A stretch of 59,267 nt of DNA from Hyphomicrobiales bacterium (GCA_019246665.1 JAFAQA010000524.1:1-59267); one strand, 5' to 3'. Counted from the stretch's first letter, positions 35,110-56,705 are shown. The notes: generated by a model not told the origin, from the sequence alone. Numbers and translations are program-made.

Positions 35110-36708
35110 CTATCCCAATGCTTCGATGAGTTCGGTCGATTTGGTCACCGCGGCGACGTTTTGCATCGCATATTCGATGGAAGCTCGGTGCCAGTCGGCG
35201 TTCATCGTCGAGCAGCAATCTTCCGGAACGATGACGAAATATCCTTTGTCGGCCCCCGTGCGAGCAGTGTGCTCAATCGACATATTGGTCCACGCGCCGG
35301 TATCGATGATCGTGTCACGGCCGCCGGATTTCAGGACGATCTCAAGGTGGCTTCCTTCGAAAGCACACATGCGCATCTTTTCGACGATATGGTCTCCGGG
35401 CTGCGGCTCGAGCCCTGCCACTGGGGCAGCGCCCCAGGAGCCGCGCACCATTGCCTTTTGATCGACCACTCCTTCGAAGAGCGGCGCATTGAGCGTAAAG
35501 CCCGGCGCCCCCGGCTCGACCACGAACCAGACATGGACGACCATGACGCCGCGCGAGCGGCACGCTTCCGCCAAACGACGGATGTTCTCGACGACATTTT
35601 GGTCCCGAGCGTGCTGGGGAGAGCCCGAAGAGGCGAAGGCGCCACCCTCCATCATCACGTCGTTCTGCATATCCTGAATGATGAGCGCGCAGCGCGAGGG
35701 GTCGATCGCGAGCGCGCCTGTTCGGATGCCCCGCTCAGGCGCAGAAGCGGAGACATTTGCAGCCGCACCACTTGCAACTCGAGCGGAGCTCGTCGGCGCG
35801 TTCGAACGCATGAACGGCTCGACCCGCGGTCCGATCTTCGTTCTGACAGCATAAAGCGAGTGGGTGGCGCAGATGAAGAGCGTTCTCCAATCCGCCTTGC
35901 CCCAGTGGATATTGGCAACGAGTTCCGGGACCTTGATTTTCCCGAGCAAGGCACCGGAGCGCGAATACACCCACACCCCGCCTGGCGCGGTCACCCAGAT
36001 GTTGCCGGCGCTGTCGCATTTCATGCCGTCCGGCACGCCGGGCTCGAGTTCCGAGCGGATGCCGGAGGCGAAAATCCGGTCGGGTCCGAGCGAGCCGTCC
36101 GACCTCACATCGAAGACGCGGATGAGTGCGCGGACCGTATCGTTCACGTAAAGCTGCCGCTCGTCGGGCGAAAAGCAGAGCCCGTTCGGCTGCTCGAAGA
36201 GATTTCGATCGACGAGAAGCTGCGGCTCCCGATTCCCCGGCCGCACGCGATAGACACCTTGGAAGTCGAGCTGGCGCGGTCGTTCGACGCCGTACACAGG
36301 CATGCGTCCGTACGAAGGATCTGAAAAATAGATCGAACCGTCGGAGTGGACACACACATCATTCGGACTATTGAGTTCCTTGCCCTCGAAGTGCGACGCC
36401 AGAATTTCGCGTTTGCCATCGTGCTCGCGAACAAGCGTCGATGTCGCGTGTTCGCAAACAACCAGGGCAAGCTGCGCATCATAAGTCATGCCGTTGCATT
36501 TGTTGGAAGGTCGCGTGACCTCGCGTATGCCGGCGCGCTCGTCATAACGGCGCCTCACATCAGCCGGCATGTCAGAGAAAAGCAGATACTGATCGCGCGG
36601 ATGCCAGATCGGCCCTTCGGTGAAGGTGAACCCACCCGCCAACCGCTCGACGGGAGCGTCGATGTCGATTAATTCGGAAAACTCGCGACGCAGTGCGGAA
36701 TGGCGCAT
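35110..36708 (-). CDS. SMP-30/gluconolactonase fused to an isochorismatase-like hydrolase domain (nucleophile position Ser)
   Basis: N-part has FTEGP.W, NGMT, NSPND, PNGL.FSPD and PDGM. After an Ala/Ser-rich linker, the C-part has IQDMQND, EKMR and GAWTNMSIEHTAR. Confidence 0.88.
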   Translation of the reverse strand: MRHSALRREFSELIDIDAPVERLAGGFTFTEGPIWHPRDQYLLFSDMPADVRRRYDERAGIREVTRPSNKCNGMTYDAQLALVVCEHATSTLVREHDGKREILASHFEGKELNSPNDVCVHSDGSIYFSDPSYGRMPVYGVERPRQLDFQGVYRVRPGNREPQLLVDRNLFEQPNGLCFSPDERQLYVNDTVRALIRVFDVRSDGSLGPDRIFASGIRSELEPGVPDGMKCDSAGNIWVTAPGGVWVYSRSGALLGKIKVPELVANIHWGKADWRTLFICATHSLYAVRTKIGPRVEPFMRSNAPTSSARVASGAAANVSASAPERGIRTGALAIDPSRCALIIQDMQNDVMMEGGAFASSGSPQHARDQNVVENIRRLAEACRSRGVMVVHVWFVVEPGAPGFTLNAPLFEGVVDQKAMVRGSWGAAPVAGLEPQPGDHIVEKMRMCAFEGSHLEIVLKSGGRDTIIDTGAWTNMSIEHTARTGADKGYFVIVPEDCCSTMNADWHRASIEYAMQNVAAVTKSTELIEALG

Positions 36709-36724
36709 CCGTTGTGTCCTCTCT

Positions 36725-37573
36725 TCAGGCGGGGAACCACTGCCGTCGCGGCAGGGATTGGACGACAGACCCCGGGACAGTGTCTTGCAGGCGGCCCGCG
36801 ACTTGTCCTGCTTCGATCAGCGCCGGACGATCATGGACCGGAAGCACGAAACGCGAGCTCGCGACGACCTTCTTGATCGCGGCCTTCTCCTGGCGCTTGG
36901 TCGTGCCGTGATTGCCGGTGACGCGCGGCTCCATGTCGCCGATTTCGCGGAAAGGTTCGACCAGCTGATCGTTAATGTCGTAGATTACATCTCCGCAGAT
37001 GGTCGCGATCCCTTCATTCGTCTTGACGATCACGTTCATCGAACCCTCGGTGTGCCCGCCGGCTGCCTCGCAGATAACCCCAGGCATCAGCTCGGTTGGC
37101 CCGGAAATCTCGAGGTCGAGAAAGCGCAACGCGCCTTTGGTATGGAGGCGATCGACGAGGTGCTTGATATCGACTGCCGGATATTGGGGGTGCATGAGGC
37201 CCGAAACCGAATATTCCAGCTCGCGTCGATTGATGACGACCGCGGTGTTCATCGGAAAGAGATCGTCCTTGCCGGCGTGATCGATATGCAGATGTGTATG
37301 GAGGACGTAGCGGACGTCACCCAGCTTGAGGCCATGCTTCTTCAGCTGATTCTCTATCATGTTCTCGTAGGATTGCATGCCGCGCATCCCGAGAGTCTCC
37401 ATGATCTGATTTGAGCGGTAGCCTGTATCGACCAGCACGGGCCACGTACCCCCGAGTATGAGAAAGCCCAAAGTCGGCACGCGCCGCGTGCGGCCGCAAT
37501 CGCGTCCGAGGACCAGAAAGCTCGACTCAAGTTCGATATCGCCGTAGTCGAGAATCTTGATTTCGAGCGCCAT
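36725..37573 (-). CDS. Metallo-beta-lactamase-fold lactonase (AHL-lactonase family)
   Basis: VDTG, THLHIDHAG, GHTEG, CGD and PVHD metal ligands. Confidence 0.88.
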   Translation of the reverse strand: MALEIKILDYGDIELESSFLVLGRDCGRTRRVPTLGFLILGGTWPVLVDTGYRSNQIMETLGMRGMQSYENMIENQLKKHGLKLGDVRYVLHTHLHIDHAGKDDLFPMNTAVVINRRELEYSVSGLMHPQYPAVDIKHLVDRLHTKGALRFLDLEISGPTELMPGVICEAAGGHTEGSMNVIVKTNEGIATICGDVIYDINDQLVEPFREIGDMEPRVTGNHGTTKRQEKAAIKKVVASSRFVLPVHDRPALIEAGQVAGRLQDTVPGSVVQSLPRRQWFPA

Positions 37574-37600: not shown

Positions 37601-38491
37601 CTATTGGCCAAGCCGATAAACTTTTGCGGCTGTGCCATGCAGCACCGCCCGAGCCGTCTCTTCGCCCAGCCCTTCGAGCGCGCTTCGGTACGCCGAAACC
37701 AGATCGGAAAAGCGGGTCCACAATTTCTCGATCGGAAAGTTCGAACCGAAGAGGCAGCGCGTCGGACCGAATATTTCAATGGTATCGCGCACCACCGCGG
37801 TGATGTGTGCGGGATCATTGCGGTGGATGAAGGTGCCGAGACCGGATAATTTCGAGACGACGTTCGAGCACGTGGCGAGACGGCACATCCCACTCCGCCA
37901 TCTATCGTAACCTTCCGCGGAAGTGTCCTCCAGCATGCCGGCGTGCTGGAGAATAAACGTGACCTTCGGAGCGCTCTCAGCCAGCTCCGTTGCGCCTTCC
38001 ATCTGCCCCGAAAAGACCTGGAGGTCGAAACTCCAGCCATAGTCGGCGAGGCGCGCGACGTTGCGCTGCAGCGTCGGGTCTCGAGCCAGGTCCGGCCCCG
38101 GCGCAAACCGGTATTGCGGATTCTGGTGCCATTGCAGTTGCATGCGCAAGCCGCGCATGCCCTCGTATTTTGTCAGACGGTCCAGTTGTGGGCGAACATC
38201 CTCTGCGAGAAAATCCGCGTAGCCGACGATAGCTTGTGGAAAGCCGGTCTCGTCGGCGACGCCTTGCACATAGGAGACTTCCTCCTCGAATGCGTCCTGG
38301 CGCCAGTTGCACTGGACATAGACCGATTGGGTGACCTCGCAGCCGGTGATGTCGGCCAGGTACTCGTCGATCGGATAGTCCCTCCGGATCGCCTCGTAGC
38401 TTCCAAAGATGCGCGGCTGCATCGATCCGAGCAGCCATGGCAGGTCGGCGCGCCGCCATATGTGGTGATGAGCATCGATGATCGTCGTCAT
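37601..38491 (-). CDS. Amidohydrolase-2 family protein (sugar lactonase/COG3618-like)
   Basis: IIDAHHHIW, WSFDLQ, LQHAG, SKLSG and FGSNFP motifs. Confidence 0.85.
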   Translation of the reverse strand: MTTIIDAHHHIWRRADLPWLLGSMQPRIFGSYEAIRRDYPIDEYLADITGCEVTQSVYVQCNWRQDAFEEEVSYVQGVADETGFPQAIVGYADFLAEDVRPQLDRLTKYEGMRGLRMQLQWHQNPQYRFAPGPDLARDPTLQRNVARLADYGWSFDLQVFSGQMEGATELAESAPKVTFILQHAGMLEDTSAEGYDRWRSGMCRLATCSNVVSKLSGLGTFIHRNDPAHITAVVRDTIEIFGPTRCLFGSNFPIEKLWTRFSDLVSAYRSALEGLGEETARAVLHGTAAKVYRLGQ

Positions 38492-39600
38492 GCGGGCTTC
38501 TCGCGCGCCAGCTCGAGAACGTGAGCGCAGATGCTGTCCAACGATCCGCCGTCGCCCAATTCGTCGAGGAAGGGCCAGACCGCAGCGAGGCCGGCCGTGC
38601 GGGGCTCGAAATTTTTATCGCCGGCGAGCGGTGTCAGCCAGACGGTGCGCCAAGCGATGCGGGATAGATGCGCCACCGCCTCACGCATCGCGCTTGGATC
38701 ACCTCGCTCGAGCCCGTCCGAAAGCACGACCAGCGCTGCTCCGCGCGCCAGCGCAGCGAAGCGAGGAATGCCCAGAAATGCGCCGAGCGCCTCGCCGATA
38801 CGGGTGCCGCCGTCCCAGTCGGCCACAAGATTAGAGGCGCTGGCGAGGGCCCGTTGGCGATTGCGCTGGCGCAGCGCCCGGGTGACGCGCGTAAGCCTCG
38901 TGCCGATCGTGAATACCTCCGCTGAGTCAGCGGCGCGCGCAAGCGCGTGCGCAAAGGCAAGGTGCGTGTGGGTGCGCTCCTTCATCGAGCCCGAAATATC
39001 GACGAGCAGCACGATGCGGCGCTGGCGCATCCGGCGCTTGCGGCGCCGCAGCCGCACGAATTCGCCGGCGGTTCGCATGGCATCGCGAAACATCCGCCGC
39101 GCGTCGGCGCCTGGTCCCCGAGGCGCGCCGCGCCAGCGGTAGCCGCGTCGTCGGGGCGCATGGGCCGGCAGTGCGCGGCTGAAACGGCGCAATATTTCGA
39201 GTTCGCCGCCAGGGCTGAAGCGCCGCGCGGCGAGTCTTTCGGCGCCAGTGGGCTTTTCCCCGGACTCATGGGTCTCGTTCCCGAAGATCGGCTCGGGGCC
39301 GCCGGAGGAATCATCGGCCGCACGGATCGATACGTCCTCGCTCGGTGCCGATTCCACCGCAATCCCGAGCGTTCCAAGAAAATGACCGTCGAACAGAGCG
39401 TCGAATTCGTTGAGGCGCTCAGGCGGGGGAGCCAAAGTTGCACGGGCAGCGCGTCGGAGGTCGCCGATCTCCGTAGGTCCGAGAAGTTCGATCCCGGCGA
39501 GCCAAGCCATGCTTTGCTCTGGCGCGACGAAAAATCCCGCCCGCCGCAGCAACGAGGGAAAGCCGAGGAGGTGCACCAGGGGCACGCTTGTGTCCATCAT
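38488..39600 (-). CDS. VWA domain protein, CoxE-like
   Basis: MIDAS DISGSM, GTRLTRVT, DWDGGTRIG and LSDGLERG; ATGA overlap with the MoxR stop. Confidence 0.9.
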   Translation of the reverse strand: MMDTSVPLVHLLGFPSLLRRAGFFVAPEQSMAWLAGIELLGPTEIGDLRRAARATLAPPPERLNEFDALFDGHFLGTLGIAVESAPSEDVSIRAADDSSGGPEPIFGNETHESGEKPTGAERLAARRFSPGGELEILRRFSRALPAHAPRRRGYRWRGAPRGPGADARRMFRDAMRTAGEFVRLRRRKRRMRQRRIVLLVDISGSMKERTHTHLAFAHALARAADSAEVFTIGTRLTRVTRALRQRNRQRALASASNLVADWDGGTRIGEALGAFLGIPRFAALARGAALVVLSDGLERGDPSAMREAVAHLSRIAWRTVWLTPLAGDKNFEPRTAGLAAVWPFLDELGDGGSLDSICAHVLELAREKPA

Positions 39601-40484
39601 GCTCCAGCCTCGACGAGAATGGAGTCGAGCTTCGGAGCCACCTGCACGAGGTCGTCCTCGTCCTTGAGAACGACACCGAGCGAGCGACGGAAAGCCTCCG
39701 GCCAACGTGCTCCTTGCTCATTGAGAAGCGTTGCGGCCTCGGCCCATTCCACCGCTTCCGCGATGCCGGGATGCTTGGCTAGCGGCTCGCGCCGCAATCG
39801 TCCCACCGCCGCGACAACGGCGCGCGCCGCTTTCTCCGCAACGCCTGATGCCCGCATCATGATGATCCGCATTTCGCGTTCGGGTGCCGGATATTCGATC
39901 CAGTGATAGACGCAGCGGCGTCGCAAGGCTTCGTGCAGCTCGCGAGTGCGATTTGACGTGAGGATCACGACCGGGCGCTCGTAGGCACGAATGGCGCCGC
40001 GCTCGGGGATCGAAATCTGAAAATCTGAGAGAAACTCGAGAAGAAAAGCCTCGAACTCGTGATCCGAACGGTCGATCTCGTCGATGAGGAGGACGGTCTC
40101 TTCCGGATGCCTCAGGCAGGCGAGCATTGGCCGCTCGATCAGGAACTCGTCGCGATAGATATCGACGGAGGCGCCCTCGGCACTCTCTTGGCGCAGCGCC
40201 AGCATCTGGCGGGGAAAGTTCCACTCGTAAAGCGCCGCCGCCGCGTCGATCCCCTCGTAGCACTGCAGGCGCAGGAGTCTGCGGCCAAGCACGCCCGCAA
40301 TCGCTTTGGCGGCTTCCGTCTTGCCGACGCCGGGCGCGCCTTCGAGGAGCAATGGTTTTCCGAGCGCGAGCGCGAGATATGCGGCAGTCGAGAGCTCTTC
40401 GTCCGAGAGATAATAGGCAGCGCGCAAGGCCTGCTCGAGATCGTGCGGGCTGCCAATGCCGACAATGGTACGTCGTACCGCCAC
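39597..40484 (-). CDS. MoxR AAA+ ATPase, CoxD-like
   Basis: GAPGVGKT, RLQCYEG, LLIDEID and TSNRTRELHEALRRRC motifs. Confidence 0.92.
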   Translation of the reverse strand: MAVRRTIVGIGSPHDLEQALRAAYYLSDEELSTAAYLALALGKPLLLEGAPGVGKTEAAKAIAGVLGRRLLRLQCYEGIDAAAALYEWNFPRQMLALRQESAEGASVDIYRDEFLIERPMLACLRHPEETVLLIDEIDRSDHEFEAFLLEFLSDFQISIPERGAIRAYERPVVILTSNRTRELHEALRRRCVYHWIEYPAPEREMRIIMMRASGVAEKAARAVVAAVGRLRREPLAKHPGIAEAVEWAEAATLLNEQGARWPEAFRRSLGVVLKDEDDLVQVAPKLDSILVEAGA

Positions 40485-40489
40485 GATCG

Positions 40490-41515
40490 CTACCGCACGC
40501 GCGGGGGCGCTTCGGGTCGACCCCGGACTTTCAACGCCCTCAGGACCTTCTCTGGCGTGATCGGCAGCTCATCGATGCGCACGCCGACGGCGTCATAGAT
40601 CGCGTTGGCGATCGCCGGAAGCGAAGGATTGGCGCACATCTCGCCCGGACCTTTGGCTCCGAACGGCCCGTCGGGCGCTGGTCGTTCGAGCACGACGATG
40701 TCGTGGGGGCAAATATCGCCGGGACCTGGCATCAGATATTCGTTAAAATCACGCGGCCCCTCGCGTGTGTCCGGATAATAGGGTTCTGGCGTCTCGAAGA
40801 GCGCGTGGCTCATGCCCATCCACGAGCCGCCAACCAGCTGTTGCTCGACCAGCTTTGGGTTGATCGCGCGCCCCAGTTCATAGGCGCTGGTCATCTTGAG
40901 CACGGTAACCTCGCCCGTCTCATCGTCGACTTCAAGGTCGACGATCTGGCAGGCGTGGGCGTAGCAGGTTGCCGGCGACATCTCGCCGGTTTCCGGATTG
41001 ACGTCCGAGAGCGGCACCAGGAAAATGCCGCGTCCGGAGATCGTCTTCCCTTGCCGGAATTGTGCCGCGATAGCGACATCTCGAACTGAAATCGCACGAT
41101 GCGGTGCGCCCTTCACGTGGATCGAGCCGCGTCCATCGGTTTCGAGATCACCGGGGTCGACTTCGAGCTCCTCGGCGGCCGCTTCCATCATCACCGCTCG
41201 CGCCTCGCGAGCCGCGGCCATGACCGCATTGCCGACCCGATGCGTGCCGCGAGAAGCGAAAGAGCCCATGCAATGGGGCCCCGTGTCGGAATCGGCAGTG
41301 TCCACGTAGACATCCTCGACCGGAATGCCGAGTGTCTCCGCGCAAATCTGCCGCGTCACCGATTTCATCCCCTGTCCAAGATCGATCGAAGAAAGCGCGA
41401 CCGTGAATTTTCCGGTCGGGTTGGAGTGGACCAGCGCTTGGCTCGGATCGCCGCCGAGATTCATGCCGATCGGGTAATTGATGGTCGCGACGCCGCGCCC
41501 GCGATGCCTGGCCAT
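40490..41515 (-). CDS. Molybdenum hydroxylase Mo-binding subunit, C-terminal half (NdhM-like)
   Basis: RGRGVA start, DLGQG, GSFASR, INP..VEQQ..GG and GPFGAKGPGE (catalytic Glu). Confidence 0.9.
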   Translation of the reverse strand: MARHRGRGVATINYPIGMNLGGDPSQALVHSNPTGKFTVALSSIDLGQGMKSVTRQICAETLGIPVEDVYVDTADSDTGPHCMGSFASRGTHRVGNAVMAAAREARAVMMEAAAEELEVDPGDLETDGRGSIHVKGAPHRAISVRDVAIAAQFRQGKTISGRGIFLVPLSDVNPETGEMSPATCYAHACQIVDLEVDDETGEVTVLKMTSAYELGRAINPKLVEQQLVGGSWMGMSHALFETPEPYYPDTREGPRDFNEYLMPGPGDICPHDIVVLERPAPDGPFGAKGPGEMCANPSLPAIANAIYDAVGVRIDELPITPEKVLRALKVRGRPEAPPRVR

Positions 41516-41517
41516 TC

Positions 41518-43104: not shown

Positions 43105-43115
43105 GACAATTCCCT

Positions 43116-43592
43116 TCAACTACGCCGAGGGGCAGCGCGGGCCGCATCGAGGACCGCGGCGATGATCGGCTCATAGCCGGTGCAGCGGCAAATGTTTCCG
43201 CAAATCGCATCGACGACGTTCTCACGTGTCGGGTTTGGCTCCCGATCAAGGAGGGCTTTCGCCGCCATCAGCATGCCCGGCGTGCAATAGCCGCACTGGG
43301 CCGCGAAGCGTTCCATGAAGGCGGTCTGCAGAGGGTGCAATTTTGCACCTTGGCGAAGCCCGGCAACTGTCTCGATGGACTTGCCTTCGCAACTTTCGGC
43401 GAGGGTCACGCAGGAAAGTCGCGGCATGCCGTCGACCAGAACCGTGCAGGTACCGCAGGTGCCCTGCCAACAACCGCCTTTGACCGAAAGGTCACCGATT
43501 CCCTCCCGCAGCACATCGAGCAGGTTGGAGCCGCTATCGGCGAAGGTGGCGACCTCTTCGTCATTCAGGCGGAACTGGATCGAAGTCTTCAT
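43116..43592 (-). CDS. Molybdenum hydroxylase 2x[2Fe-2S] subunit
   Basis: GCWQGTCGTCTV, QCGYCTPG and GNICRCTGY. Start reassigned to MKTSIQF. Confidence 0.93.
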   Translation of the reverse strand: MKTSIQFRLNDEEVATFADSGSNLLDVLREGIGDLSVKGGCWQGTCGTCTVLVDGMPRLSCVTLAESCEGKSIETVAGLRQGAKLHPLQTAFMERFAAQCGYCTPGMLMAAKALLDREPNPTRENVVDAICGNICRCTGYEPIIAAVLDAARAAPRRS

Positions 43593-43599
43593 CGGCGGC

Positions 43600-44873: not shown

Positions 44874-44877
44874 AGCC

Positions 44878-45315: not shown

Positions 45316-45348
45316 CGTGAACTTCCTTGCTCCGTTCGCGGGACGTTT

Positions 45349-48201: not shown

Positions 48202-48202
48202 C

Positions 48203-49093
48203 TTACGTCCTCCCTCTCGCTGACCGCTGGTAGAGTGCGCGGCTAACCTTTGTTTTACTATCAGATTTCTTGATTGCCTTGAATTTTGCAACTTGGTCGG
48301 CAAGAGCGCGCTCGACCGGCAGGCGCTCCATCGACGAGGCTCCGAAGAACCCGTCGCAACGACGAGACTGAGCGAGCACATAGGCGGCGTCGGCTGGCTC
48401 GGCGACCGGTCCGCCATGCACGAGCACGAAGATGTCGTGCTTCACCGCGAGCGCCGCCTCGGCCATGGTGTCGGTGAGGGCTGGACAATCCTCCAGTCGC
48501 GTCGCGGTCGCTGCGCCAATCGAGCCGCCGACCGTGAGCCCGAAATGGCACACGAGGATGTCCGCGCCGGCCTTGGCCATGGCCGCTGCCTCCCAGGGTT
48601 CGAAGACATAGGCAGCTGTCAGAAGGTCGCGCTCACGCGCCTTGGCAATCATGTCGACCTCGCGGTCATAGCCCATGCCGGTTTCCTCGAGCCCCGCGCG
48701 AAAGCGACCGTCGATGAGCCCGACCGTGGGAAAGTTCTGCACGCCGCTGAAACCCAGCCGCTTGAGTTCGAGCAGCAGATCATCCATCTGGCGGAACGGA
48801 TCGGTCCCGCATACTCCGGCGAGCACCGGCGTGCGAGCGACGACGGGGAGCACCTCGCGAGCCATATCCAGGACGACGGCGTTTGCGTCGCCATACGGCA
48901 TCATGCCGGCGAGGGACCCCCGGCCAGCCATGCGGTAGCGCCCTGAATTGTAGATGACGATGAGATCGGCGCCACCCTTCTCCTCGCTCTTGGCGGAGAT
49001 GCCGGTGCCCGCACCGGCACCGATGATGGGTTCACCCCGCTCTTTCATGGCGCGGAAACGCGCGAGAATGTCCGAGCGCGTGACACGGGGCAC
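48203..49093 (-). CDS. TIM-barrel signal transduction / PEP-hydrolase-like protein (Tm-1 C-terminal domain homolog)
   Basis: [49 protein letters not shown] and [10 protein letters not shown] motifs. Confidence 0.88.
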
Positions 49094-49096
49094 GGG

Positions 49097-51313
49097 CTAC
49101 CTCCTTGCGTGACGCCGGGTGCGGCGCCCACCGACCAACCGGCGGAATTCGGAGACGATTTCCGTCGAGAATTGCGGATCATTGATATGCGCGCGCAACC
49201 GGATGAGCCGGCGCGCGGCGGATTGCCGAACGGTGGCTTCGAGAGTTCGGAAAAGCTCTTCGTCGGCATTCGGATCTGCAAACGGCCCGCGCGGACCGTC
49301 CAGCGCCGAGAGCCCACCCTCGGGCAGGAAGAAACGGACCGGCCCCTCCATCAGATTGAGGCGCTCGCCGATCCATCGGCCGATCCGCACGTTCTCGTCC
49401 GCGGTCGTTCGCATGAGCGTCACCGTCGGGTTATGCACGTGGAACCTGCGGCCACGGTAACGCTCAGGGACGCTGTCGATCGGCCCGAAGTTCACCATGT
49501 CGAGCGCGCCGCACGAGCCGATGTAGGGAACTCTCGTGCGCGCGATGGCTCCGAACCGATCCTCGGTGGCGGGCAACACGCCACCGAAGAGAAGATCGCA
49601 GACTTCCGTCGTGGTGATATCAATCACGCCCATAAGCGCGCCGGCATCGACGAGCTTTTCCATCGATTGTCCGCCGACGCCGGTGGCGTGGAAAACGAGG
49701 CACTCGAAATCGTCATCGAGCGCGTGTGCGATGGCGTCGACGCAAGGGGTCGTGACCCCGAACATGGTGAGGCCGATCCCCGGTTTGCCGCCGCCGCGCG
49801 CCTGCAGTCGATCGCGTTCCGTCGTGCTTGCGGCGCGCGCCTTCACCATACCGACAATGGCCGCGGCCCCATTGGCGAGAACCTGGCGTGTGATCGAATT
49901 CAGTCCCGCAACGTCGGCCACGGAGTAAAGCATCATGATATCCGAGGGCCCGACATACGGAGCGACGTTGCCGGAAGCGACGGACGAGACGAGCACCTTG
50001 GGCACGCCGATCGGCAAGGCCCGCATGGCCGGCGCAACCAACGAACTTGCGCCAGATCCTCCCGCGGAAATCAGGCCGCCGATCGGCGCCTGCCGCCTGA
50101 TCCATGTTTCGAAGGCTTCGGCCATGGCGGTGATCGCGGCGCCGCGGTCCCCCGAGAAAACCGAATTTGGCCCGCCACGGTAATATGTCGCGACGTGATG
50201 GGGCGGCACATCGGCCGGCGATGGCCCGCCCGAGGTGGACAGATCAACCAGCGTCACGCGCACGCCTGCGGCGGCGATCTGATCGCGAATAAAACGAAGC
50301 TCCTCGCCTTTGGTGTCCAGCGTCCCAGCGACGATCACCGGGGCCACACCGCCGCGGTGGACTGGCCGCAGGTCGACCGCCGGGGCCGTGGGCTCGGCCG
50401 TCGCCTCGGGCACCACCGTGCGCGTGCGCGCGGCCGTCTCGATCTGTAGAATGGAAGCTGGCAGTGACCAGCGCGTCGGCGTCGCCGGGTTGGAAATAAA
50501 CACGCGGACGGGGCCGCGTGGCTTCCGCGGGCGGGCAGCGTTGCCGGGAGAAGGCTTTTCGGCAGGCTCCTCGGTCGTCCCTTCCTCGCCGTGCTGGCCC
50601 ACGCCAAGCAATCTTTGTTGAAGTTCACGATCGGCTTCGAGGCGCGCCGCGTCCATGACGCGATTGATCCGACCATTGATCATGATCGCGACTTTTTCCG
50701 CTATCGCGGTCGCGACCCCGATGTTTTGCTCAACCACCAGAATGCCGATGTCGCTTTGCTCGCCCAGTGTGACCAGGATCTGTTCGACCTGGTCCACGAT
50801 GACGGGTGCCAAGCCCTCGGTCGGCTCGTCCATCACCAAGAGGAGCGGGTTGAGAAGCAGGGCGCGTGCAATGGCCAGCATTTGTTGCTCGCCACCGGAG
50901 AGCTGATTTCCCCGATTGTTGCGTCGTTCCGCCAGCCTCGGGAACGTGTCGTAGATGCGCGAAATCGTCCACTGTGATCGGCTTGCCCCGCTCGCGAGCT
51001 GCAGGTGCTCGGCGACGGTGAGTGAAGGCCACAGCCGGCGGCCCTGCGGCACATAGCCGACCCCCAGTCGTGCGATCTCGGCAGGGCTACGACCGATGAG
51101 ATCTTCGCCCATGAAACGGATGGAGCCGCTCGCGGCAGGGATCAGCCCAAGGATTGCCTTGCACAGCGTCGTCTTGCCCATGCCGTTTCGTCCCACCAGG
51201 GAAAGCACGCCGCGCTCGAGTTTCAGATCGACGCCCTGAAGCGCATGGCTGCGTCCATAGGAGACGTTCAACCCTTTGATCTCGAGCAAATGGGACGAGC
51301 GAGGCTCAGCCAT
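49097..51313 (-). CDS. LivF-type ABC ATPase fused to a UPF0261/Tm-1-like ATP-binding domain
   Basis: N-part has GRNGMGKT, VPQGR, LSGGEQQM and DEPTEGL. After an ~85-aa linker, the C-part has GTLDTKGEE, GGSG, LPIGVPK..VS, TMFGVTT, FHATG.GG, GALDMVNFG and HINDP.F. Confidence 0.9.
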   Translation of the reverse strand: MAEPRSSHLLEIKGLNVSYGRSHALQGVDLKLERGVLSLVGRNGMGKTTLCKAILGLIPAASGSIRFMGEDLIGRSPAEIARLGVGYVPQGRRLWPSLTVAEHLQLASGASRSQWTISRIYDTFPRLAERRNNRGNQLSGGEQQMLAIARALLLNPLLLVMDEPTEGLAPVIVDQVEQILVTLGEQSDIGILVVEQNIGVATAIAEKVAIMINGRINRVMDAARLEADRELQQRLLGVGQHGEEGTTEEPAEKPSPGNAARPRKPRGPVRVFISNPATPTRWSLPASILQIETAARTRTVVPEATAEPTAPAVDLRPVHRGGVAPVIVAGTLDTKGEELRFIRDQIAAAGVRVTLVDLSTSGGPSPADVPPHHVATYYRGGPNSVFSGDRGAAITAMAEAFETWIRRQAPIGGLISAGGSGASSLVAPAMRALPIGVPKVLVSSVASGNVAPYVGPSDIMMLYSVADVAGLNSITRQVLANGAAAIVGMVKARAASTTERDRLQARGGGKPGIGLTMFGVTTPCVDAIAHALDDDFECLVFHATGVGGQSMEKLVDAGALMGVIDITTTEVCDLLFGGVLPATEDRFGAIARTRVPYIGSCGALDMVNFGPIDSVPERYRGRRFHVHNPTVTLMRTTADENVRIGRWIGERLNLMEGPVRFFLPEGGLSALDGPRGPFADPNADEELFRTLEATVRQSAARRLIRLRAHINDPQFSTEIVSEFRRLVGGRRTRRHARR

Positions 51314-52088
51314 GCCCTCCTCCCAAATACAATTGCTGCACCTGGGGGTCTGCTTCGATTTCGCGCGGCGTTCCTTCCTTGAAGATCCGTCCGTTGTGCA
51401 TCATCGTCACGCTCTCAACCACCCGCAGCGCAACGTCCATGTCATGCTCAATGATGATGTAGCCGATATGGGCGGGAAGCGCGGTGAGGATCGCGATGAG
51501 ATCGCCTCGCTCGTTCGGCGAAAGCCCCGCTGCCGGTTCGTCGAACAGGATGAAGCGCGGTGCGCCTGCGAGTGCCAGAGCGATCTCGAGCTGACGTTGC
51601 TGGCCGTGCGCCAGCTCGCCGACCGGACGATCGGTGACGGATTCGAGATGCACCAGCGCAATGAGGCTGGTGACCGATTGCATGATGGCGTCGCGGGCGT
51701 GCCTGCGGGCAAACGAGAAACGGCCGCGCGAAACGCCTAGGCAGGCGAGATAGACGTTGTCTCGGACCGAGAGGCCCTGGAACAACAGCGAGATTTGGTA
51801 AGTGCGGCGCAGGCCTCGGCGAATGCGTTCGTGGGGCGGCAGATTAGTCACATCCTCGCCGTAGAAGCGCACGCTACCCGAGGTTGGGGGAAAATCGCCG
51901 GTCACGCAATTGAGCAAGGTGGTTTTGCCCGCGCCGTTGGACCCGAGCACGGCGCGTCGCTCGCCGGGTCGAACGCTGAGCGTGATGTCGGACAAGGCTG
52001 CGAGACCGCCGAAACGCCGGCTTACGCCGCGCAATTCGATCGCATTGCCGGTGCCGGCGACAGCAATCCGTTCGGCGATCGTGCTCAA
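51306..52088 (-). CDS. LivG-type ABC ATPase
   Basis: GSNGAGKT, L.HGQQRQLEI, DEPAAGLS and IEHDM. TTG start overlaps the upstream stop. Confidence 0.92.
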   Translation of the reverse strand: MSTIAERIAVAGTGNAIELRGVSRRFGGLAALSDITLSVRPGERRAVLGSNGAGKTTLLNCVTGDFPPTSGSVRFYGEDVTNLPPHERIRRGLRRTYQISLLFQGLSVRDNVYLACLGVSRGRFSFARRHARDAIMQSVTSLIALVHLESVTDRPVGELAHGQQRQLEIALALAGAPRFILFDEPAAGLSPNERGDLIAILTALPAHIGYIIIEHDMDVALRVVESVTMMHNGRIFKEGTPREIEADPQVQQLYLGGGHG

Positions 52089-53143
52089 CGCGGGCTCTTC
52101 CCGGTCTGGGAGCGAGCGCGCGCCGACCACCGCCGCCAAAGGCCTATCATCCCATCGGGCGAGAAGAGCACGATGACAAGAAATCCCAGTCCGATGATCG
52201 TCTGGAAGCGGCGTCCATCGAGTCCGACGGCGACAAGCGAGTCGAGGGCGAAGGTCCGCAATATTACGTAGATCAACGCACCGATGAAGGCACCGATTGG
52301 GTGTCCGAGGCCCCCGACCACCGCAATCACGAGAAGGTCGATCGTCGCCTCGATGCCGGCGGTGCCTGGAGAGATCTGGTTGTTGAGCCACACCAAAAGG
52401 ATGCCGCCAATCGCCGCGATGAGGGCCGCGAAAGCGTAGGCGGCGATGCGGTGAGCGGTGACATTGAAGCCGATCGCCTCCATGCGACGGGGATTATCGC
52501 GGGTGCCTTGGAGAGCGAGGCCGAACGGCGCGCGGGAGATGTAGAGAACAGTAACGTAGCTGAGACCGGCAAAAAATAGGATCAGATAATAGAGGGCGAC
52601 GGGAGATTTCCAGTTGATACCAAGGAAAATCGGTGCCGGTATCGTCGTAAAGCCGTTGAAGCCGTTGAAGATCGACCAGTTCTGGAGTGTCAGGTAGAAG
52701 AAAGCGCTCGCAAGTGCGAGGGTGATCATGATCGTATAGATGCCTTCGGTGCGCGCGGAGAGGGCGCCGGCTAGCGTTCCGAAAGCGACGGCAATGATGA
52801 TCGCAACAGGGGCAGCCACCCACCACGGCCAGAACAGGCTAATCGAGGGAAGTGAACTCGCGCCGAAAACGGTGATCATGTATCCGGCAAGGCCCGCGAC
52901 CGTCATCTGCACCAGGCTCACCATGCCGCCGTAGCCGGCGAGAAACATCAACGACAGCGCGATCATGCCGAGGATCAAGGTCCAGCCGACGATCTGGTCG
53001 AGCACGAAATTGCTCGCGACCGCCGGCAGCAGCACCAGGACAAGCCCGAGCAGCAGAATGGCAAAATGATCGGCGATCCAGCGCGGCGGCGCCGCGCTGT
53101 CGACGCCGCCGATCCTAGTCTCCCTGGTGTGCGAGATCGCCAC
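52085..53143 (-). CDS. LivM-type branched-chain ABC permease
   Basis: GYGGMVSL, Y.IMITLA, PFG.AL...RDN..R...G and VVGG.G...GA motifs. Confidence 0.92.
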   Translation of the reverse strand: MAISHTRETRIGGVDSAAPPRWIADHFAILLLGLVLVLLPAVASNFVLDQIVGWTLILGMIALSLMFLAGYGGMVSLVQMTVAGLAGYMITVFGASSLPSISLFWPWWVAAPVAIIIAVAFGTLAGALSARTEGIYTIMITLALASAFFYLTLQNWSIFNGFNGFTTIPAPIFLGINWKSPVALYYLILFFAGLSYVTVLYISRAPFGLALQGTRDNPRRMEAIGFNVTAHRIAAYAFAALIAAIGGILLVWLNNQISPGTAGIEATIDLLVIAVVGGLGHPIGAFIGALIYVILRTFALDSLVAVGLDGRRFQTIIGLGFLVIVLFSPDGMIGLWRRWSARARSQTGKSPR

Positions 53144-54211
53144 TCAACGCCGTCCCAGAAGCCCTTGCGGGCGCAAGGCGAGAACAACCACCATGATCAC
53201 GAATGTCGCGACCGTTGCATAATTTTGGAAGTAAACCAGGCCAAACTGCTCCGAGAGGCCGATGATGAGAGCGCCGAGCGCGGCACCCGGAATCGATCCC
53301 ATTCCCCCAACGATCACCACGACGAGCGATGCCAACAGGAAATGCGAGTCTTCGCCGAGGGAGATCGATTGGAATGTCCCGCCCACGATGCCTGCCATTC
53401 CGGCCAATCCGGCGCCGAACGCGAAGACGAGGATGAACAAGAGTTGCACCCGGTATCCGAGCACCGAGAGCATGTCGCGATCATCGACCCCGGCGCGGAT
53501 CATCATGCCGATCCGCGTACGGTGCAGGGCAAGCCACATCCCGACGCCGATCAGGACGGCGGCGATAAAAATCACGAGCCTGACGCGGGGGTATTGAAGA
53601 AAAACCGCGTCACCGCTCGATTTGATGGCGACAATGATGGGGGTTGGCACGGGACCCATCAAATAATCCGGCGTATCGATCTGGATGGCGTTGCCGCCCC
53701 AGACCCACACCATCAGATCGGAGAAGACGATCGAGAGCCCAAGCGTGACAAGCGTCTGGCGGAGATCCTGCCCCTGCATTCGACGGAAGATCAGGACCTG
53801 CATGGCGGCGCCGACCAAGGCACAACAGGCAAACGCGAAAACATAACTGAGGAGCCACGAACCGGTCCACACACCCGCCTCGTAACCCATATAACCACCA
53901 AACAAGTAGAGCGAGCCGTGCGCGAGGTTGACGTTGCGCATCAGGCCAAAGATCAACGTGAATCCGGCGGCAACGAGAAAGTAGAGCCCGCCGAGCGTAA
54001 TGCCATTGAAAAGTGCGTTGATGAATAGACGCTTCCTGCCGAAAACGTTCTCGAACTCTTCCGGCCATGGCGCGAACACCAGCCAGAGCACGAAAATAAC
54101 AGCAATGGCGATCGTCAGCGCCGCGACGGGACGACGGCTTATCCAGCGCGCGAACCTGTCACCGCGCTGCGCGGTTTGTGGTGCAACTTCGTGGCCAAGA
54201 GCCGTGGTCAA
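53144..54211 (-). CDS. LivH-type branched-chain ABC permease
   Basis: NGITLGGLY..A.GFTLIFG...VNLAHG, VIVGGMGS and RPQGL.G motifs. Confidence 0.92.
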   Translation of the reverse strand: MTTALGHEVAPQTAQRGDRFARWISRRPVAALTIAIAVIFVLWLVFAPWPEEFENVFGRKRLFINALFNGITLGGLYFLVAAGFTLIFGLMRNVNLAHGSLYLFGGYMGYEAGVWTGSWLLSYVFAFACCALVGAAMQVLIFRRMQGQDLRQTLVTLGLSIVFSDLMVWVWGGNAIQIDTPDYLMGPVPTPIIVAIKSSGDAVFLQYPRVRLVIFIAAVLIGVGMWLALHRTRIGMMIRAGVDDRDMLSVLGYRVQLLFILVFAFGAGLAGMAGIVGGTFQSISLGEDSHFLLASLVVVIVGGMGSIPGAALGALIIGLSEQFGLVYFQNYATVATFVIMVVVLALRPQGLLGRR

Positions 54212-54294: not shown

Positions 54295-55122
54295 CTATTC
54301 GACCACGACCCGGGCTATAGTCCGATAAAGATTGGGTGCCACGCCGACATGGGCTGAGAAGAAATGGGTGAAATGGCTCTGAGATGAGAAGCCGAGCTCA
54401 AAACCGATATCGCTTACTGAGATTTGGGGGTCCATCAGGCGCTCAAGGGCCCGCTCGATCCGCATGGTATTGGCGTAGAGTGCGGGTGTCACCCCGGTGT
54501 TTTCGCGAAACAACTTGAAGAAATGCGGCCGGGACAGGCCGACATGTCGCGCGATGGCATCGAGCTCGAGGCCTTGTGAACAGCCGTCCTGCAGCAAGTG
54601 CAACGACTTACGAACGCGAAAGTCGATGGAGGTTCTGCAGGCCGAAAGGGTTGCCGGTCGACGATCCTTGCTCCAGGAAGCATCAAAGCTCGCATCGAAG
54701 AGCTGGTTCAAGTAGCGCTCGACGATCCGACAGCTCGCGTGAGTTACAAGCACGTGGGCAAGGCTCACGGCAATCGAGCGGATCGTTGTTCCTACCTCGA
54801 TCGTGTTGGCACCAAAACGTAGGCTGCCGCGACCGTGTTGATCTCGGTCAAGCCATCGCTCGCAGAGATAGGCCACCAGAAAGACCGAACCTTGATTTCC
54901 AGGGCTTGGGCAAAAAGAATGCGGCTGCCAAGGATTGATGGCTACCCCTCTCGTCTCGTTGACGACGTGGGGAACATCACAAATGGTGACCACTGCCGGA
55001 GGGCCACTCAACAGGTAAGTCAGATGCCCTTCACGATGCGCATGCGTGCGCATGGGCCGATCGAGCTTATAAACGGTCACTCGCCCGAATGCGCCATGGC
55101 AGACTGACAGAGCATTGCTCAT
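54295..55122 (-). CDS. AraC-family transcriptional regulator with cupin N-domain
   Basis: HAHRE cupin motif; double HTH GLSRPHFFKLF...GVTP and LGFSSQSHFT.FF. Confidence 0.92.
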   Translation of the reverse strand: MSNALSVCHGAFGRVTVYKLDRPMRTHAHREGHLTYLLSGPPAVVTICDVPHVVNETRGVAINPWQPHSFCPSPGNQGSVFLVAYLCERWLDRDQHGRGSLRFGANTIEVGTTIRSIAVSLAHVLVTHASCRIVERYLNQLFDASFDASWSKDRRPATLSACRTSIDFRVRKSLHLLQDGCSQGLELDAIARHVGLSRPHFFKLFRENTGVTPALYANTMRIERALERLMDPQISVSDIGFELGFSSQSHFTHFFSAHVGVAPNLYRTIARVVVE

Positions 55123-55442
55123 CGATCGCCTCCCACACAGGTTTTCTTGTTTTGTGGATTAAGCGCCGACCTGTTCCGGGTGACAAGTGGGTGTGCGGTT
55201 GAACTTGAGAATTGGGCAAGATCGGACCCCAAGACAGGCAGGCGCAGCCCGTGTACTTGGGTTGCGACTACACAAATCCGGCGCGCAAATTCTAAGATTC
55301 CACAGTAATGGACTTGTGGCGGACGCCCGCCAACTGTTACGATTTCGTTGCTGGTCGATAGGACGGTGAGTTATTCCCCCCGCAACAACTAAGCTTCAGC
55401 AGCCGGTGCCGTTTCACGGTGCACCAACAGGAGGAAACCTCA

Positions 55443-56705
55443 ATGCGCAAGGGCATGGTACTCGCGTATGCGGCGGCTTGCGTCGCGCTCGCCAATAGCG
55501 GATCTGCGCAAGCTGCCGATAAACTCAAGGTTGGCGTCACCGCGACGCTCGAAGGCACGTACACCGTGCTAGGTGAAGACGGCATGCGCGGCTACGAGCT
55601 CGCAGTGAAGGCTCATAACGGGAAGGCCGGGGGCAGGGAAATCGAGACCATCGTCGGGTCAACGGATGCCAGTCCGGACTCAGCGCTGCGGGCCGCCAAG
55701 AAGCTGGTCGAACAAGATAAGGTCGACGTCCTTATCTCCCCGCTCTCGGGCGCAGAAGGCATCGCGATCAGGGATTATTCCAAGACGCAGCCGCAGATCA
55801 CTGTCATCAACGCATCCTCTGGTGCGCTGGAAACCACTTATGTGGACCCCTCCCCCACATTCTTCCGCTTCAATATGGACGGTGCGCAGTGGCATGCCGG
55901 GCTTGGCGACTACATCTACAACACCAAACACTATAAAAAAATTGCTACGGTCGCAGAAGACTATGCGTTCACGTATACCCAAGTTTTTGGACTGGCACTG
56001 GAGTATTGCCAACTAGGCGGGCAGATCACCAAGAGGTTTTGGGTGCCGCTCGGTACCAAGGATTTCGCTTCGGTCATCGCGGCGCTCCCTGATGACGTGG
56101 ATGCCATTTACCTCGGACTTGGCGGCGCCGACGCCGTGAACTTCCTCAACCAGTATCAACAAGCCGGCGGCAACGCCAAGCTCATTGGCGGGTCGATCAT
56201 GGTGGACCAGACGGTGCTGTCGTCGAAGGGGAAAGCGAAAGAAGCGCTGGTCGGTGTCGTCGCGGCAAGCGGCTCTGCCGATACCGATCCTGATCCGAAA
56301 TGGCAGGCGTTCGTGAAAGCCTATCAGGAAGCCTGGCCGGCCGATAAGCGCTTTGCCGCTCCATCGCTCCTTGCCATCAGCTACTACAATTCGGCGGATG
56401 CGGTGTTTCGTGCGCTCGACCAGGTCAACGGGGATCTCAGCGACGGCAATAAGAAGTTCCGCGAAGCCCTGAAGAACATGGTTCTGGACGCCCCGAATGG
56501 GAAAATAACTCTGGACGAAAATCGCCAGGCCATTGGCACGAATTTCGTGACAGAAGTCGTGAAGGACGAGCGTGGCGATCTCGTCAGCAAGGTCGTCAAG
56601 GTCGTCCCGAACGTGCAAGAACGGCTCGGGTTCTCAAAGGAAGTCTTCGACAAGATCGGCCTGCCCGGACGGGATGTGCCCGAGTGCAAGAAGAGCTATC
56701 CATAA
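55443..56705 (+). CDS. LivJ/K-type ABC substrate-binding protein
   Basis: Sec signal, KVGV...EG.Y, KLVEQDKVD and DYAF; RBS GGAGG; divergent from the AraC/operon. Confidence 0.9.
   Translation: MRKGMVLAYAAACVALANSGSAQAADKLKVGVTATLEGTYTVLGEDGMRGYELAVKAHNGKAGGREIETIVGSTDASPDSALRAAKKLVEQDKVDVLISPLSGAEGIAIRDYSKTQPQITVINASSGALETTYVDPSPTFFRFNMDGAQWHAGLGDYIYNTKHYKKIATVAEDYAFTYTQVFGLALEYCQLGGQITKRFWVPLGTKDFASVIAALPDDVDAIYLGLGGADAVNFLNQYQQAGGNAKLIGGSIMVDQTVLSSKGKAKEALVGVVAASGSADTDPDPKWQAFVKAYQEAWPADKRFAAPSLLAISYYNSADAVFRALDQVNGDLSDGNKKFREALKNMVLDAPNGKITLDENRQAIGTNFVTEVVKDERGDLVSKVVKVVPNVQERLGFSKEVFDKIGLPGRDVPECKKSYP

What the first reader, a model, noticed from the sequence alone, without database searches (positions are those of the whole stretch)
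35110..56705. Candidate undescribed system: 17-gene operon coupling a Tm-1-like module, a giant flotillin and SRPBCC proteins to an ABC importer and a molybdenum hydroxylase pathway
Seen: 17 co-directional genes from 54211 to 35110, with every gap <=33 bp or overlapping: livH, livM, livG, livF::UPF0261, TIM-barrel, flotillin, SRPBCC x2, FAD, FeS, MoL, MoM, MoxR, vWA, amidohydrolase, MBL and SMP-30::isochorismatase-like. An AraC gene lies 83 bp upstream and a binding protein is divergent. Known: Mo-hydroxylases oxidise heterocycles and aldehydes, SPFH proteins form membrane-attached rings or cages, and SRPBCC folds bind small hydrophobic ligands. Inference: uptake, sensing, ligand shuttling, oxidation and ring hydrolysis may be organised on a flotillin scaffold as a membrane-bound metabolon or compartment. 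I know of no characterised pathway with this gene set.
Basis: partly seen in the sequence, partly recalled or inferred. Interest (0 to 1): 0.9.

Follow-up and report, generated by a model that had tools for sequence, protein, structure and literature searches.

The report
Import-and-oxidation operon with giant flotillin
This is a real 17-gene operon, widespread in soil alphaproteobacteria and apparently uncharacterised, that likely imports and oxidises an unknown small compound; its oxidising enzyme carries a conserved tail, seen only beside an extra-long membrane-cage protein (flotillin), which would be a docking tag if the enzymes are gathered in that cage.

Summary
Observation confirmed: 17 co-directional genes, gaps at most 33 bp. 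All 17 keep this order in 55 of 66 full-length related loci. The likely Bradyrhizobium diazoefficiens orthologues (bll3369-bll3385) fall together 3.5-7.5-fold in a published, apparently unreplicated RNA-seq screen. Nine literature searches found no characterisation.

The cluster joins two modules that also occur apart. One is an ABC importer whose LivF is fused to a MarK/Tm-1-type kinase domain, plus flotillin and two SRPBCC proteins. The other is a split nicotinate-dehydrogenase-like Mo hydroxylase with MoxR/vWA and a lactonase.

The flotillin wall is one predicted helix of about 630 residues and varies in 11-residue steps. New here: the Mo subunit ends in a disordered linker and a conserved RFSS-x-x-G motif. 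It is present in all flotillin-linked copies checked across families and absent from 17 unlinked ones. It arose once, so the match is a single event, and no binding partner was tested.

Best reading: import, trapping by phosphorylation, hydroxylation and lactone opening, likely organised on a flotillin barrel. Substrate unknown; a sugar-derived oxygen heterocycle is favoured. The scan found this cluster four times before on other DNA; none of the notes shown mention the tail.

The parts
55443..56705 (+). LIV-type periplasmic binding protein (Peripla_BP_6), divergent here
   Evidence: Pfam 9.5e-55; nearest solved chains only E 5e-36 to 7e-23; linked to the cluster in relatives
54295..55122 (-). 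AraC-family regulator
   Evidence: HTH_18 1e-21; hit in 72 of 80 loci, often at the locus edge; also leads some flotillin-free Mo modules
53144..54211 (-). LivH-like permease
52085..53143 (-). LivM-like permease
51306..52088 (-). LivG-like ABC ATPase
49097..51313 (-). LivF ATPase fused through a Pro/Ala linker to a UPF0261 (Tm-1/MarK-type, predicted kinase) domain
   Evidence: Pfam; Tm-1 3WRY 5e-93, MarK 9MPY 2e-58; ATP-site Lys335 and the MarK G195/H219/H304 positions kept, four other pocket residues Tm-1-like
50465..50476 (-). Conserved T-R-W-S motif inside the otherwise variable LivF-UPF0261 linker
   Evidence: my pattern missed it in some copies (L152, L163, L166, L177, L179)
48203..49093 (-). 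PF09370 PEP-hydrolase-like TIM barrel, the second half of the Tm-1-like pair
   Evidence: Pfam 1e-125; Mll9387 2P10 9e-113
45349..48201 (-). 950-aa flotillin: N-terminal membrane helix, SPFH domain, very long helical wall, Flot cap
   Evidence: Pfam; model: helix 3-33, SPFH about 34-190, helix 198-825 with one low-confidence break; fold matches prohibitin, flotillin, HflK/C and MVP
45826..47559 (-). Flotillin stalk: 578 residues built of 44-residue (4 x 11) repeats
   Evidence: self-identity 0.36 at lag 44, next peaks at 33, 77 and 11; shuffled control about 0.12, computed at lag 30; length 6 mod 11 in 68 of 68 close loci and 26 of 34 distant loci, 3 mod 11 in the other 8
44878..45315 (-). SRPBCC protein 1 (mean identity 87% in 80 loci, which were selected on this gene)
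44415..44873 (-). SRPBCC protein 2; fused to an MDR oxidoreductase in clusters without the Mo enzyme
43600..44418 (-). Mo-hydroxylase FAD subunit
43116..43592 (-). Mo-hydroxylase 2x[2Fe-2S] subunit
41518..43104 (-). Mo-binding large half (MoL, NdhL-like)
   Evidence: 3HRD_A 7e-60
41518..41739 (-). MoL C-terminal extension: Pro-rich disordered linker plus conserved terminal motif (41518-41553), a candidate docking peptide
   Evidence: pLDDT below 50 for residues 456-528; motif in 72 of 77 MoL hits; synonymous codon variation in 19 diverse loci; one gain on the tree
40490..41515 (-). Mo-binding medium half (MoM, NdhM-like), catalytic Glu motif intact
   Evidence: 3HRD_B 4e-49; motifs
39597..40484 (-). 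MoxR/CoxD-type AAA+ ATPase
38488..39600 (-). CoxE-type vWA protein
37601..38491 (-). Amidohydro_2 hydrolase, nearest to L-fuconolactonase (below its cut-off)
   Evidence: NF052480 101 of 400 bits; 4DLF 3e-16
36725..37573 (-). Metallo-beta-lactamase-fold hydrolase, nearest to AHL- and pyridoxolactonases (below cut-offs)
35110..36708 (-). SMP-30/gluconolactonase fused to an isochorismatase-like domain with Ser at the position where relatives have Cys
   Evidence: Ser in 70 of 70 orthologues; 3KL2 alignment

Best explanation
The 17 genes form a conserved operon, likely one transcript, that likely imports a small organic acid, likely traps it by phosphorylation at the transporter, likely hydroxylates it with a four-subunit molybdenum enzyme and likely opens the resulting lactone, with an extra-long flotillin predicted to form a barrel on the inner face of the membrane that would hold the importer and the enzymes together.

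Shown: gene content, order, fusions, repeat structure, the MoL tail and its distribution. Inferred, with my odds: one catabolic unit (0.9); UPF0261 is a small-molecule kinase (0.65); the flotillin physically organises at least the importer (0.6); the MoL tail docks the enzyme on the flotillin or on an SRPBCC adaptor (0.4); the substrate is a sugar-derived oxygen heterocycle such as a furan or pyranone carboxylate, or a sugar acid (0.4).

The cluster probably arose by joining an importer-kinase-flotillin-SRPBCC module to a stand-alone Mo module. In that step the MDR enzyme fused to SRPBCC2 was lost and MoL gained its tail.
For: Operon: order kept in 55 of 66 loci. MoM relatives at E<=1e-90 occur in 86 of 401 genomes and 34 of 149 genera of the window's order. 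USDA110 bll3369-bll3385 match in count and order, and 7 of 17 have identical lengths. They are expressed at RPKM 71-212 and all fall 3.5-7.5-fold in a phaR mutant, while bll3388 (0.83) and blr3367 (1.39) do not (PMC6201568 file 4). Six of them and AraC rise together in a nasT mutant.

Kinase: MarK is a UPF0261 kinase, and the ATP-site Lys and the two His are kept. UPF0261 is found in 85 of 86 genomes with the Mo enzyme, including 13 of 13 where the enzyme is tail-less and unlinked, against 71 of 315 others (kin are not independent). A kinase pair is also essential for the Mo enzyme HpdA.

Lactone and sugar theme: three lactonase-type folds. The Amidohydro_2 gene follows the Mo genes in 11 of 15 flotillin-free loci. 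Stand-alone UPF0261 genes sit among sugar-catabolic genes. The Yoonia copy adds SDR-FAH-SDR genes, the FAH scoring 412 of 500 bits to a diketo-deoxyrhamnonate hydrolase model. Arg336, Tyr340 and Lys344 of MoL are kept from Alphaproteobacteria to a haloarchaeon, which suggests an anionic substrate (inference).

Scaffold: the importer, LivF::UPF0261, flotillin and SRPBCC genes stay together without the Mo genes. Stalk length moves in 11-residue steps from 446 to 853. The human flotillin cage is a closed helical barrel. The tail was present in 36 of 36 genomes checked among the 73 higher-identity MoM genomes, all 73 of which have the flotillin (72 by search; 1 frameshifted). It was absent in 15 of 15 unlinked loci and in two distant ones. 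Its codons vary synonymously.
Against: The tail arose once (1 change, support 99/99), so its match with flotillin is a single event and would also follow from shared ancestry. The last Arg codons overlap the ribosome-binding site of MoM, and the motif resembles the end of tail-less MoL, so it may be a duplicated terminus. Tail-less enzymes with the same pocket residues occur in 5 of 9 tested genomes that have no flotillin hit. Tail length does not track stalk length (rho 0.08, n=27). A sealed cage would hinder the ATP and electron-acceptor exchange that these enzymes need (inference). Oligomerisation was not modelled; the monomer model has pTM 0.32. The binding protein is LIV-type, not sugar-type, and the closest solved Mo enzyme acts on nicotinate. 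The kinase pocket differs from MarK at 4 of 7 positions. USDA110 orthology rests on order, length and labels, not on sequence, and the RNA-seq was called a screening test.
Confidence: 0.5

Rival explanations
1. The flotillin only forms a membrane microdomain for the importer. The Mo enzyme works free in the cytoplasm, or touches the membrane through its basic-aromatic tail binding lipid, as CoxG is thought to do for CO dehydrogenase.
For: Flotillin travels with the importer, not with the Mo genes. Tail-less enzymes exist without flotillin. The tail is rich in Arg and Phe. CoxG is proposed to recruit CODH to the membrane for electron transfer.
Against: It does not explain why stalks are 446-853 residues in Mo-linked clusters but 201-482 in the 7 measured Mo-free ones (phylogenetically confounded), nor why a similar R-aromatic-S motif sits in the LivF linker.
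Confidence: 0.25
2. The pathway degrades an N-heterocycle (a pyridine carboxylate or hydroxypyridine), working like nicotinate or 3-hydroxypyridine dehydrogenase, and serves as a nitrogen source. This rival concerns the substrate only.
For: The best solved matches for both Mo halves are E. barkeri nicotinate dehydrogenase L and M, with the same split. HpdA needs an SRPBCC subunit and a kinase pair. The cluster responds to nasT loss. The haloarchaeal copy sits with a cyclase-family gene.
Against: There are no maleamate-pathway genes. The hydrolases are lactonase-type. The isochorismatase-like domain has Ser at the usual Cys position in 70 of 70. The position aligned to Arg319 of NdhL is Lys (the role of Arg319 is recalled).
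Confidence: 0.3
3. The Tm-1-like pair is a sensor that couples transport to signalling or regulates LivF, not a catabolic kinase.
For: The TIM domain was named a signal-transduction domain. A PF09370-Fis HTH fusion occurs at L112. The TIM gene is absent in 2 of 66 loci. Tm-1 itself has no known catalysis.
Against: MarK is a demonstrated kinase with the same ATP-site Lys and His residues. Stand-alone UPF0261 genes lie inside catabolic clusters.
Confidence: 0.15
4. The MoL tail is not a docking tag. It is a duplicated terminus held by translational coupling to MoM, a degron, or a handle for MoxR/vWA during maturation.
For: One origin; overlap with the MoM ribosome-binding site and likeness to tail-less ends.
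Against: The R-F-S-S-x-x-G residues lie upstream of that site and vary synonymously while the linker diverges freely. Most tail-less loci also keep MoxR/vWA and all keep the split L/M layout.
Confidence: 0.25

Closest known systems
Eubacterium barkeri nicotinate dehydrogenase NdhFSLM (PDB 3HRD)
   Same: Best solved match for both Mo halves; same four-subunit layout with split L and M; catalytic Glu motif, Tyr13(M) and Phe353(L) positions kept (residue roles recalled).
   Different: Modest similarity (E 7e-60 and 4e-49); Arg319(L) position is Lys; a 73-residue disordered tail; different surrounding genes.
3hpd cluster / HpdA of Ensifer adhaerens HP1 (bioRxiv 10.1101/2020.01.08.898148)
   Same: ABC transporter, Mo hydroxylase, a separate essential SRPBCC subunit and an essential kinase pair (passages).
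   Different: One unsplit Mo subunit; PPDK-type kinase, not UPF0261; SRPBCC has a membrane segment; maleamate pathway downstream; no flotillin in the passages read.
MarK aromatic kinase (PMC12624787, PDB 9MPY) and tomato Tm-1 (PDB 3WRY)
   Same: UPF0261 fold, ATP-site D-T-K, and the G195, H219 and H304 positions.
   Different: Fused to an ABC ATPase; at T196, F283, I285 and H348 it has the Tm-1 residues (V, M, N, L), so the substrate likely differs from MarK's; paired with the TIM barrel as in plant Tm-1.
Human flotillin-1/2 cage (PDB 9BQ2, 9L3G) and other SPFH cages (HflK/C, prohibitin, MVP)
   Same: SPFH domain, charged non-heptad helical wall and C-terminal cap.
   Different: Wall about 630 residues against 186; single gene; 44-residue repeats of variable number; encoded inside a catabolic operon.
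FArhodopsin gene clusters (PMC10308929) and YqiJ-YqiK / NfeD-SPFH2 operons (PMC2636767)
   Same: Related flotillin; FAR clusters also carry transport and hydrolase genes.
   Different: No rhodopsin and no NfeD/YqiJ partner among the 17 genes; a much longer stalk.
cox cluster accessory genes CoxD, CoxE, CoxG (PMC4240915)
   Same: AAA+ ATPase, vWA and SRPBCC genes beside a Mo hydroxylase.
   Different: Not a CO dehydrogenase (far below NCBIfam cut-offs); the SRPBCC proteins are short and soluble.

Membership tests
Xanthine-oxidase-family Mo hydroxylase | FAD, 2x[2Fe-2S] and Mo-binding domains with the Moco motifs and catalytic Glu | tested here: met
Nicotinate dehydrogenase (NdhFSLM) | Split L and M Mo subunits | tested here: met
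Nicotinate dehydrogenase (NdhFSLM) | Arg at NdhL position 319 (substrate-binding role recalled) | tested here: not met
   Lys344 in the window and in relatives
Nicotinate dehydrogenase (NdhFSLM) | Hydroxylation of nicotinate | not testable with these tools
   needs an assay
Xanthine dehydrogenase or aerobic CODH | Scores above NCBIfam equivalog cut-offs; XDH-type Glu after GGGFGGK (recalled) | tested here: not met
   All far below cut-off, partly because the subunit is split; Val follows the motif
3hpd (3-hydroxypyridine) cluster | Unsplit Mo subunit, PPDK-type kinase pair, maleamate pathway genes | tested here: not met
   no direct sequence comparison with HpdA was made
UPF0261 kinase (MarK type) | ATP-site Lys and substrate His residues | tested here: met
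UPF0261 kinase (MarK type) | MarK aromatic pocket (T196, F283, I285, H348) | tested here: not met
   V, M, N, L, as in Tm-1
Flotillin-like SPFH protein | Membrane segment, Band_7, helical wall, Flot domain | tested here: met
Flotillin-like SPFH protein | NfeD/YqiJ partner in the operon | tested here: not met
   none among the 17 genes; usual for SPFH2; not searched genome-wide
Flotillin-like SPFH protein | Assembly into a ring or cage | not testable with these tools
   monomer model only
FArhodopsin cluster | Rhodopsin gene next to the flotillin | tested here: not met
Protein compartment with cargo-loading peptides (encapsulin or microcompartment type, recalled) | Short conserved terminal motif on a disordered linker, found only with the shell gene | tested here: inconclusive
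   pattern present but one origin
Protein compartment with cargo-loading peptides (encapsulin or microcompartment type, recalled) | Encapsulin or BMC shell fold | tested here: not met
   no such domain among the 17 genes

The most novel reading that the evidence does not exclude
The flotillin builds a membrane-attached barrel roughly 50-130 nm long that caps the ABC importer and holds the kinase, the Mo hydroxylase and the lactonases. They are loaded through short R-aromatic-S peptides on disordered linkers (the MoL tail and the LivF linker). This would be a metabolic compartment made from an SPFH protein, with its length set in 11-residue steps. Finding the substrate would also suggest the native chemistry of plant Tm-1.
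Probability: 0.3. Interest if true: 0.92.

Novelty: new variant of a known kind. Interest (0 to 1): 0.75.

Why it matters
What most bacterial flotillins scaffold is an open question. Here one sits in a single operon with named candidate clients and a candidate docking peptide, and it is already expressed in a genetically tractable strain (B. diazoefficiens USDA110, likely bll3380) in ordinary medium. Deleting 12 residues tests the scaffold idea directly.

The cluster or its Mo enzyme occurs in about a fifth of the sampled genomes of this order, so it marks an unknown but common soil nutrient. The LivF-kinase fusion would be an ABC-type analogue of import coupled to phosphorylation. Its pocket matches tomato Tm-1, a virus-resistance protein whose native biochemical role is unknown.

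Tried and rejected
Complex prediction for the MoL tail against the flotillin cap and both SRPBCC proteins was not available; nothing was folded, so it gives no result either way. No RNA holder was listed for window 40000-49900, so no reads were laid. The promoter and terminator scan gave counts at chance level (4 against 3.8, and 18 against 15.7) and is uninformative. The ESM Atlas returned only generic SRPBCC clusters. Tail length against stalk length: no correlation.

The nicotinate dehydrogenase structure paper was not held, so its residue roles are recalled. bioRxiv supplements were not seen; the 3hpd tables could bear on the comparison.

Rejected readings: polyketide synthesis (the label used in PMC6201568; no PKS domains); CO dehydrogenase and LIV amino-acid uptake (labels in PMC6759348; below cut-offs); blr3389 as the binding protein (bll3387 fits by position and co-regulation). 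L174 first looked like a tail without a flotillin, but the gene lies 3.4 kb outside the fetched stretch. G946 was missed by the flotillin search but has a frameshifted copy in place and keeps the tail. Three of the 75 MoL hits from flotillin-linked loci lack the terminal motif (L004, L021, L034); they look like frameshifts but were not checked base by base. No specific substrate could be assigned.

Full report
Observation. The largest gap is 33 bp. AraC ends 83 bp before livH and the binding protein is divergent. The window is one whole contig, and each cluster gene has a single close copy in the genome. GC content is 60-66% across the cluster, like its flanks.

Conservation. Of the 66 full-length loci, 55 have all 17 genes in order, 9 lack Amidohydro_2, 1 lacks the TIM gene and 1 lacks both. 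MoM relatives at E<=1e-90 occur in 86 of 401 genomes of the order and in 6 of 401 of a class-wide sample. Full clusters also lie on Shinella and Yoonia replicons.

Co-transcription. Recalled USDA110 locus tags led to two papers. PMC6759348 (passages) labels bll3369 a gluconolactonase, bll3376/77 coxS/coxM, bll3383-85 LIV transport and bll3386 AraC, all raised 2.3-5.4-fold in a nasT mutant. PMC6201568 (passages and supplement file 4, part 46) lists 17 genes bll3369-bll3385 whose lengths match the window, 7 exactly. All drop 3.5-7.5-fold in a phaR mutant, as does bll3387 (5.1); bll3388 and blr3367 do not. This supports one regulated unit. Orthology is inferred from order, length and labels, and the data are a screening experiment in TY medium. 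PMC6321122 only lists bll3374 in a figure legend.

Two modules. Some genomes carry importer, LivF::UPF0261, sometimes TIM, a shorter flotillin, SRPBCC1 and an SRPBCC2::MDR oxidoreductase fusion, with amidohydrolase, FAH and alpha/beta-hydrolase genes and no Mo enzyme (Variovorax L082, G256, G024, G184, G096, G947, G818, partly G828). Others carry the four Mo genes with a GntR or AraC regulator, usually MoxR/vWA, an EthD or single SRPBCC gene and the Amidohydro_2 gene, without this importer or flotillin (15 loci). Related Mo loci occur in Nonomuraea and Salinigranum. G184, G096, G947, G818 and G828 hold both modules at separate places. The window's cluster is best read as their union (inference).

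Enzymes. MoL and MoM are closest to E. barkeri nicotinate dehydrogenase among solved structures. The catalytic Glu motif is intact, Val follows GGGFGGK, and Arg336, Tyr340 and Lys344 are kept in the distant copies examined, which points to an anionic substrate. MoxR and vWA are CoxD/CoxE-type maturation factors (PMC4240915, passages). The UPF0261 domain matches Tm-1 better than MarK. It keeps the ATP-site Lys and two His of MarK, a proven kinase (PMC12624787, passages), but has Tm-1 residues at four pocket positions. UPF0261 occurs in 85 of 86 MoM-positive genomes and in 71 of 315 others; kinship and genome size inflate this contrast. The 3hpd cluster is a working precedent for a Mo hydroxylase that needs both an SRPBCC subunit and a kinase pair (bioRxiv 10.1101/2020.01.08.898148, passages; lead from an earlier scan note). 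The three downstream hydrolases are nearest to lactonases, all below family cut-offs, and the isochorismatase-like domain has Ser for Cys. Stand-alone UPF0261 genes lie among sugar-catabolic genes in most of the loci read. A LIV-type binding protein, a cationic Mo pocket, lactonases and sugar-type neighbours are reconciled most simply by a sugar-derived oxygen heterocycle or sugar acid (0.4); an N-heterocycle remains possible (0.3).

Flotillin. The model has a membrane helix, an SPFH domain, a helix from residue 198 to 825 with one low-confidence break, and a poorly predicted cap. The fold matches prohibitin, flotillin, HflK/C and MVP. The stalk is built of 44-residue repeats. Its length is 6 mod 11 in 68 of 68 close loci and 26 of 34 distant ones, and 3 mod 11 in the other 8, ranging from 446 to 853 residues. 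Human flotillin forms a closed 44-mer barrel 22 nm high with a 186-residue wall (bioRxiv 10.1101/2024.05.09.593390, passages). Scaled, the window's 578-residue stalk would give 68-87 nm; assembly itself is not shown. There is no NfeD partner, unlike most SPFH2 operons (PMC2636767, passages). Related flotillins occur beside rhodopsins, importers and hydrolases (PMC10308929, passages).

The MoL tail. After the enzyme core MoL continues with a Pro-rich linker and ends in a conserved motif; residues 456-528 have pLDDT below 50. The motif is in 72 of 77 MoL hits; two of the five misses are flotillin-free loci and three look like frameshifts. In the order sample, 13 genomes have tail-less enzymes with no linked flotillin, and 73 have higher-identity enzymes. 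I checked the tail in 36 of those 73 and found it in all, and all 73 have the flotillin; in eight fragmented assemblies it is on another contig. In 19 diverse loci the R, F, S, S and G codons vary synonymously, so the constraint is on the protein; the final Arg codons overlap the MoM ribosome-binding site. A similar T-R-W-S motif sits in the LivF-UPF0261 linker of most copies. On a 49-sequence tree the tail needs one change (L138 and L126 were left out for lack of a complete gene call), so the association is one event. Five of 9 tail-less genomes tested have no flotillin hit at E<=1e-10. The layout resembles cargo-loading peptides (recalled), and the SRPBCC2::MDR fusion suggests SRPBCC2 as an adaptor, but no binding partner was tested.

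Literature. Nine full-text searches found no paper describing this gene set. The library lacks most subscription journals, so absence is not proven. PMC5028733 (passages) covers the origin of the Tm-1 gene pair only. The scan's own notes record the cluster four times in other genomes; a word search for the tail found nothing.

Verdict. A real, common and apparently uncharacterised catabolic operon. It works like known Mo-hydroxylase clusters, 3hpd above all, but failed the membership tests for each named system. It adds a transporter-kinase fusion, a dedicated extra-long flotillin and a candidate docking tail. The scaffold reading is plausible (about 0.5) and the enclosed-compartment reading less so (0.3); both can be tested directly in USDA110.

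Noticed in passing
window 26186-35076: Two divergent Amidohydro_1 genes, a DUF1028 gene, a polyamine-type ABC importer and a glutathione S-transferase converge on the operon's end; a GST is also seen beside the cluster in 12 of 80 loci.
   Followed up: no
window 48203-49093 and 45349-48201: The TIM gene runs about 19 codons longer than the 277-aa Bradyrhizobium orthologues, and the flotillin stalk is three 44-residue repeats shorter than in most of the closest relatives (578 against 710).
   Followed up: partly
L083:10484-23184, L178:9969-15095, L182:9248-14504: Rhodopsin-flotillin pairs in alphaproteobacterial genomes with ABC and alpha/beta-hydrolase genes (AttM lactonase and Fe-ADH in L083), followed by one or two genes without a Pfam match.
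   Followed up: partly
L112:1818-4052: PF09370 TIM barrel fused to a Fis-type HTH near a Mo-free version of the cluster; a similar second TIM-like gene lies at L191:10405-12192.
   Followed up: no
L197:7615-10255 (G946): Flotillin gene with a frameshift near codon 60 in an otherwise intact cluster; the MoL tail is kept. It may be a sequencing error.
   Followed up: partly
L186:831-3362 and 24418-26752 (Yoonia): The full cluster is extended by Fe-ADH and aldehyde dehydrogenase genes upstream and SDR-FAH-SDR genes downstream, a possible lower pathway.
   Followed up: partly
L187:6714-14434 (Salinigranum) and L188:9315-15880 (Nonomuraea): The same split Mo enzyme, 62-64% identical in MoM, occurs in a haloarchaeon (with ABC, cyclase and SRPBCC genes) and an actinomycete.
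   Followed up: partly
window 36725-36760: The MBL hydrolase ends in a conserved P-R-R-x-W-F motif in the few relatives seen; it may be part of the fold or a third short tag.
   Followed up: no
P0168, P0173, P0195; L021: A few database proteins join MoL and MoM in one frame (855-881 aa); possibly long-read indel artefacts.
   Followed up: no
L121, L122, L136, L191-L195: Unfused UPF0261 genes, mostly paired with a TIM gene, lie beside sugar importers, ThuA/cupin, 3-keto-disaccharide hydrolase, glucose/sorbosone dehydrogenase, GMC oxidoreductase and Gfo/Idh/MocA genes, often with an SRPBCC gene.
   Followed up: partly
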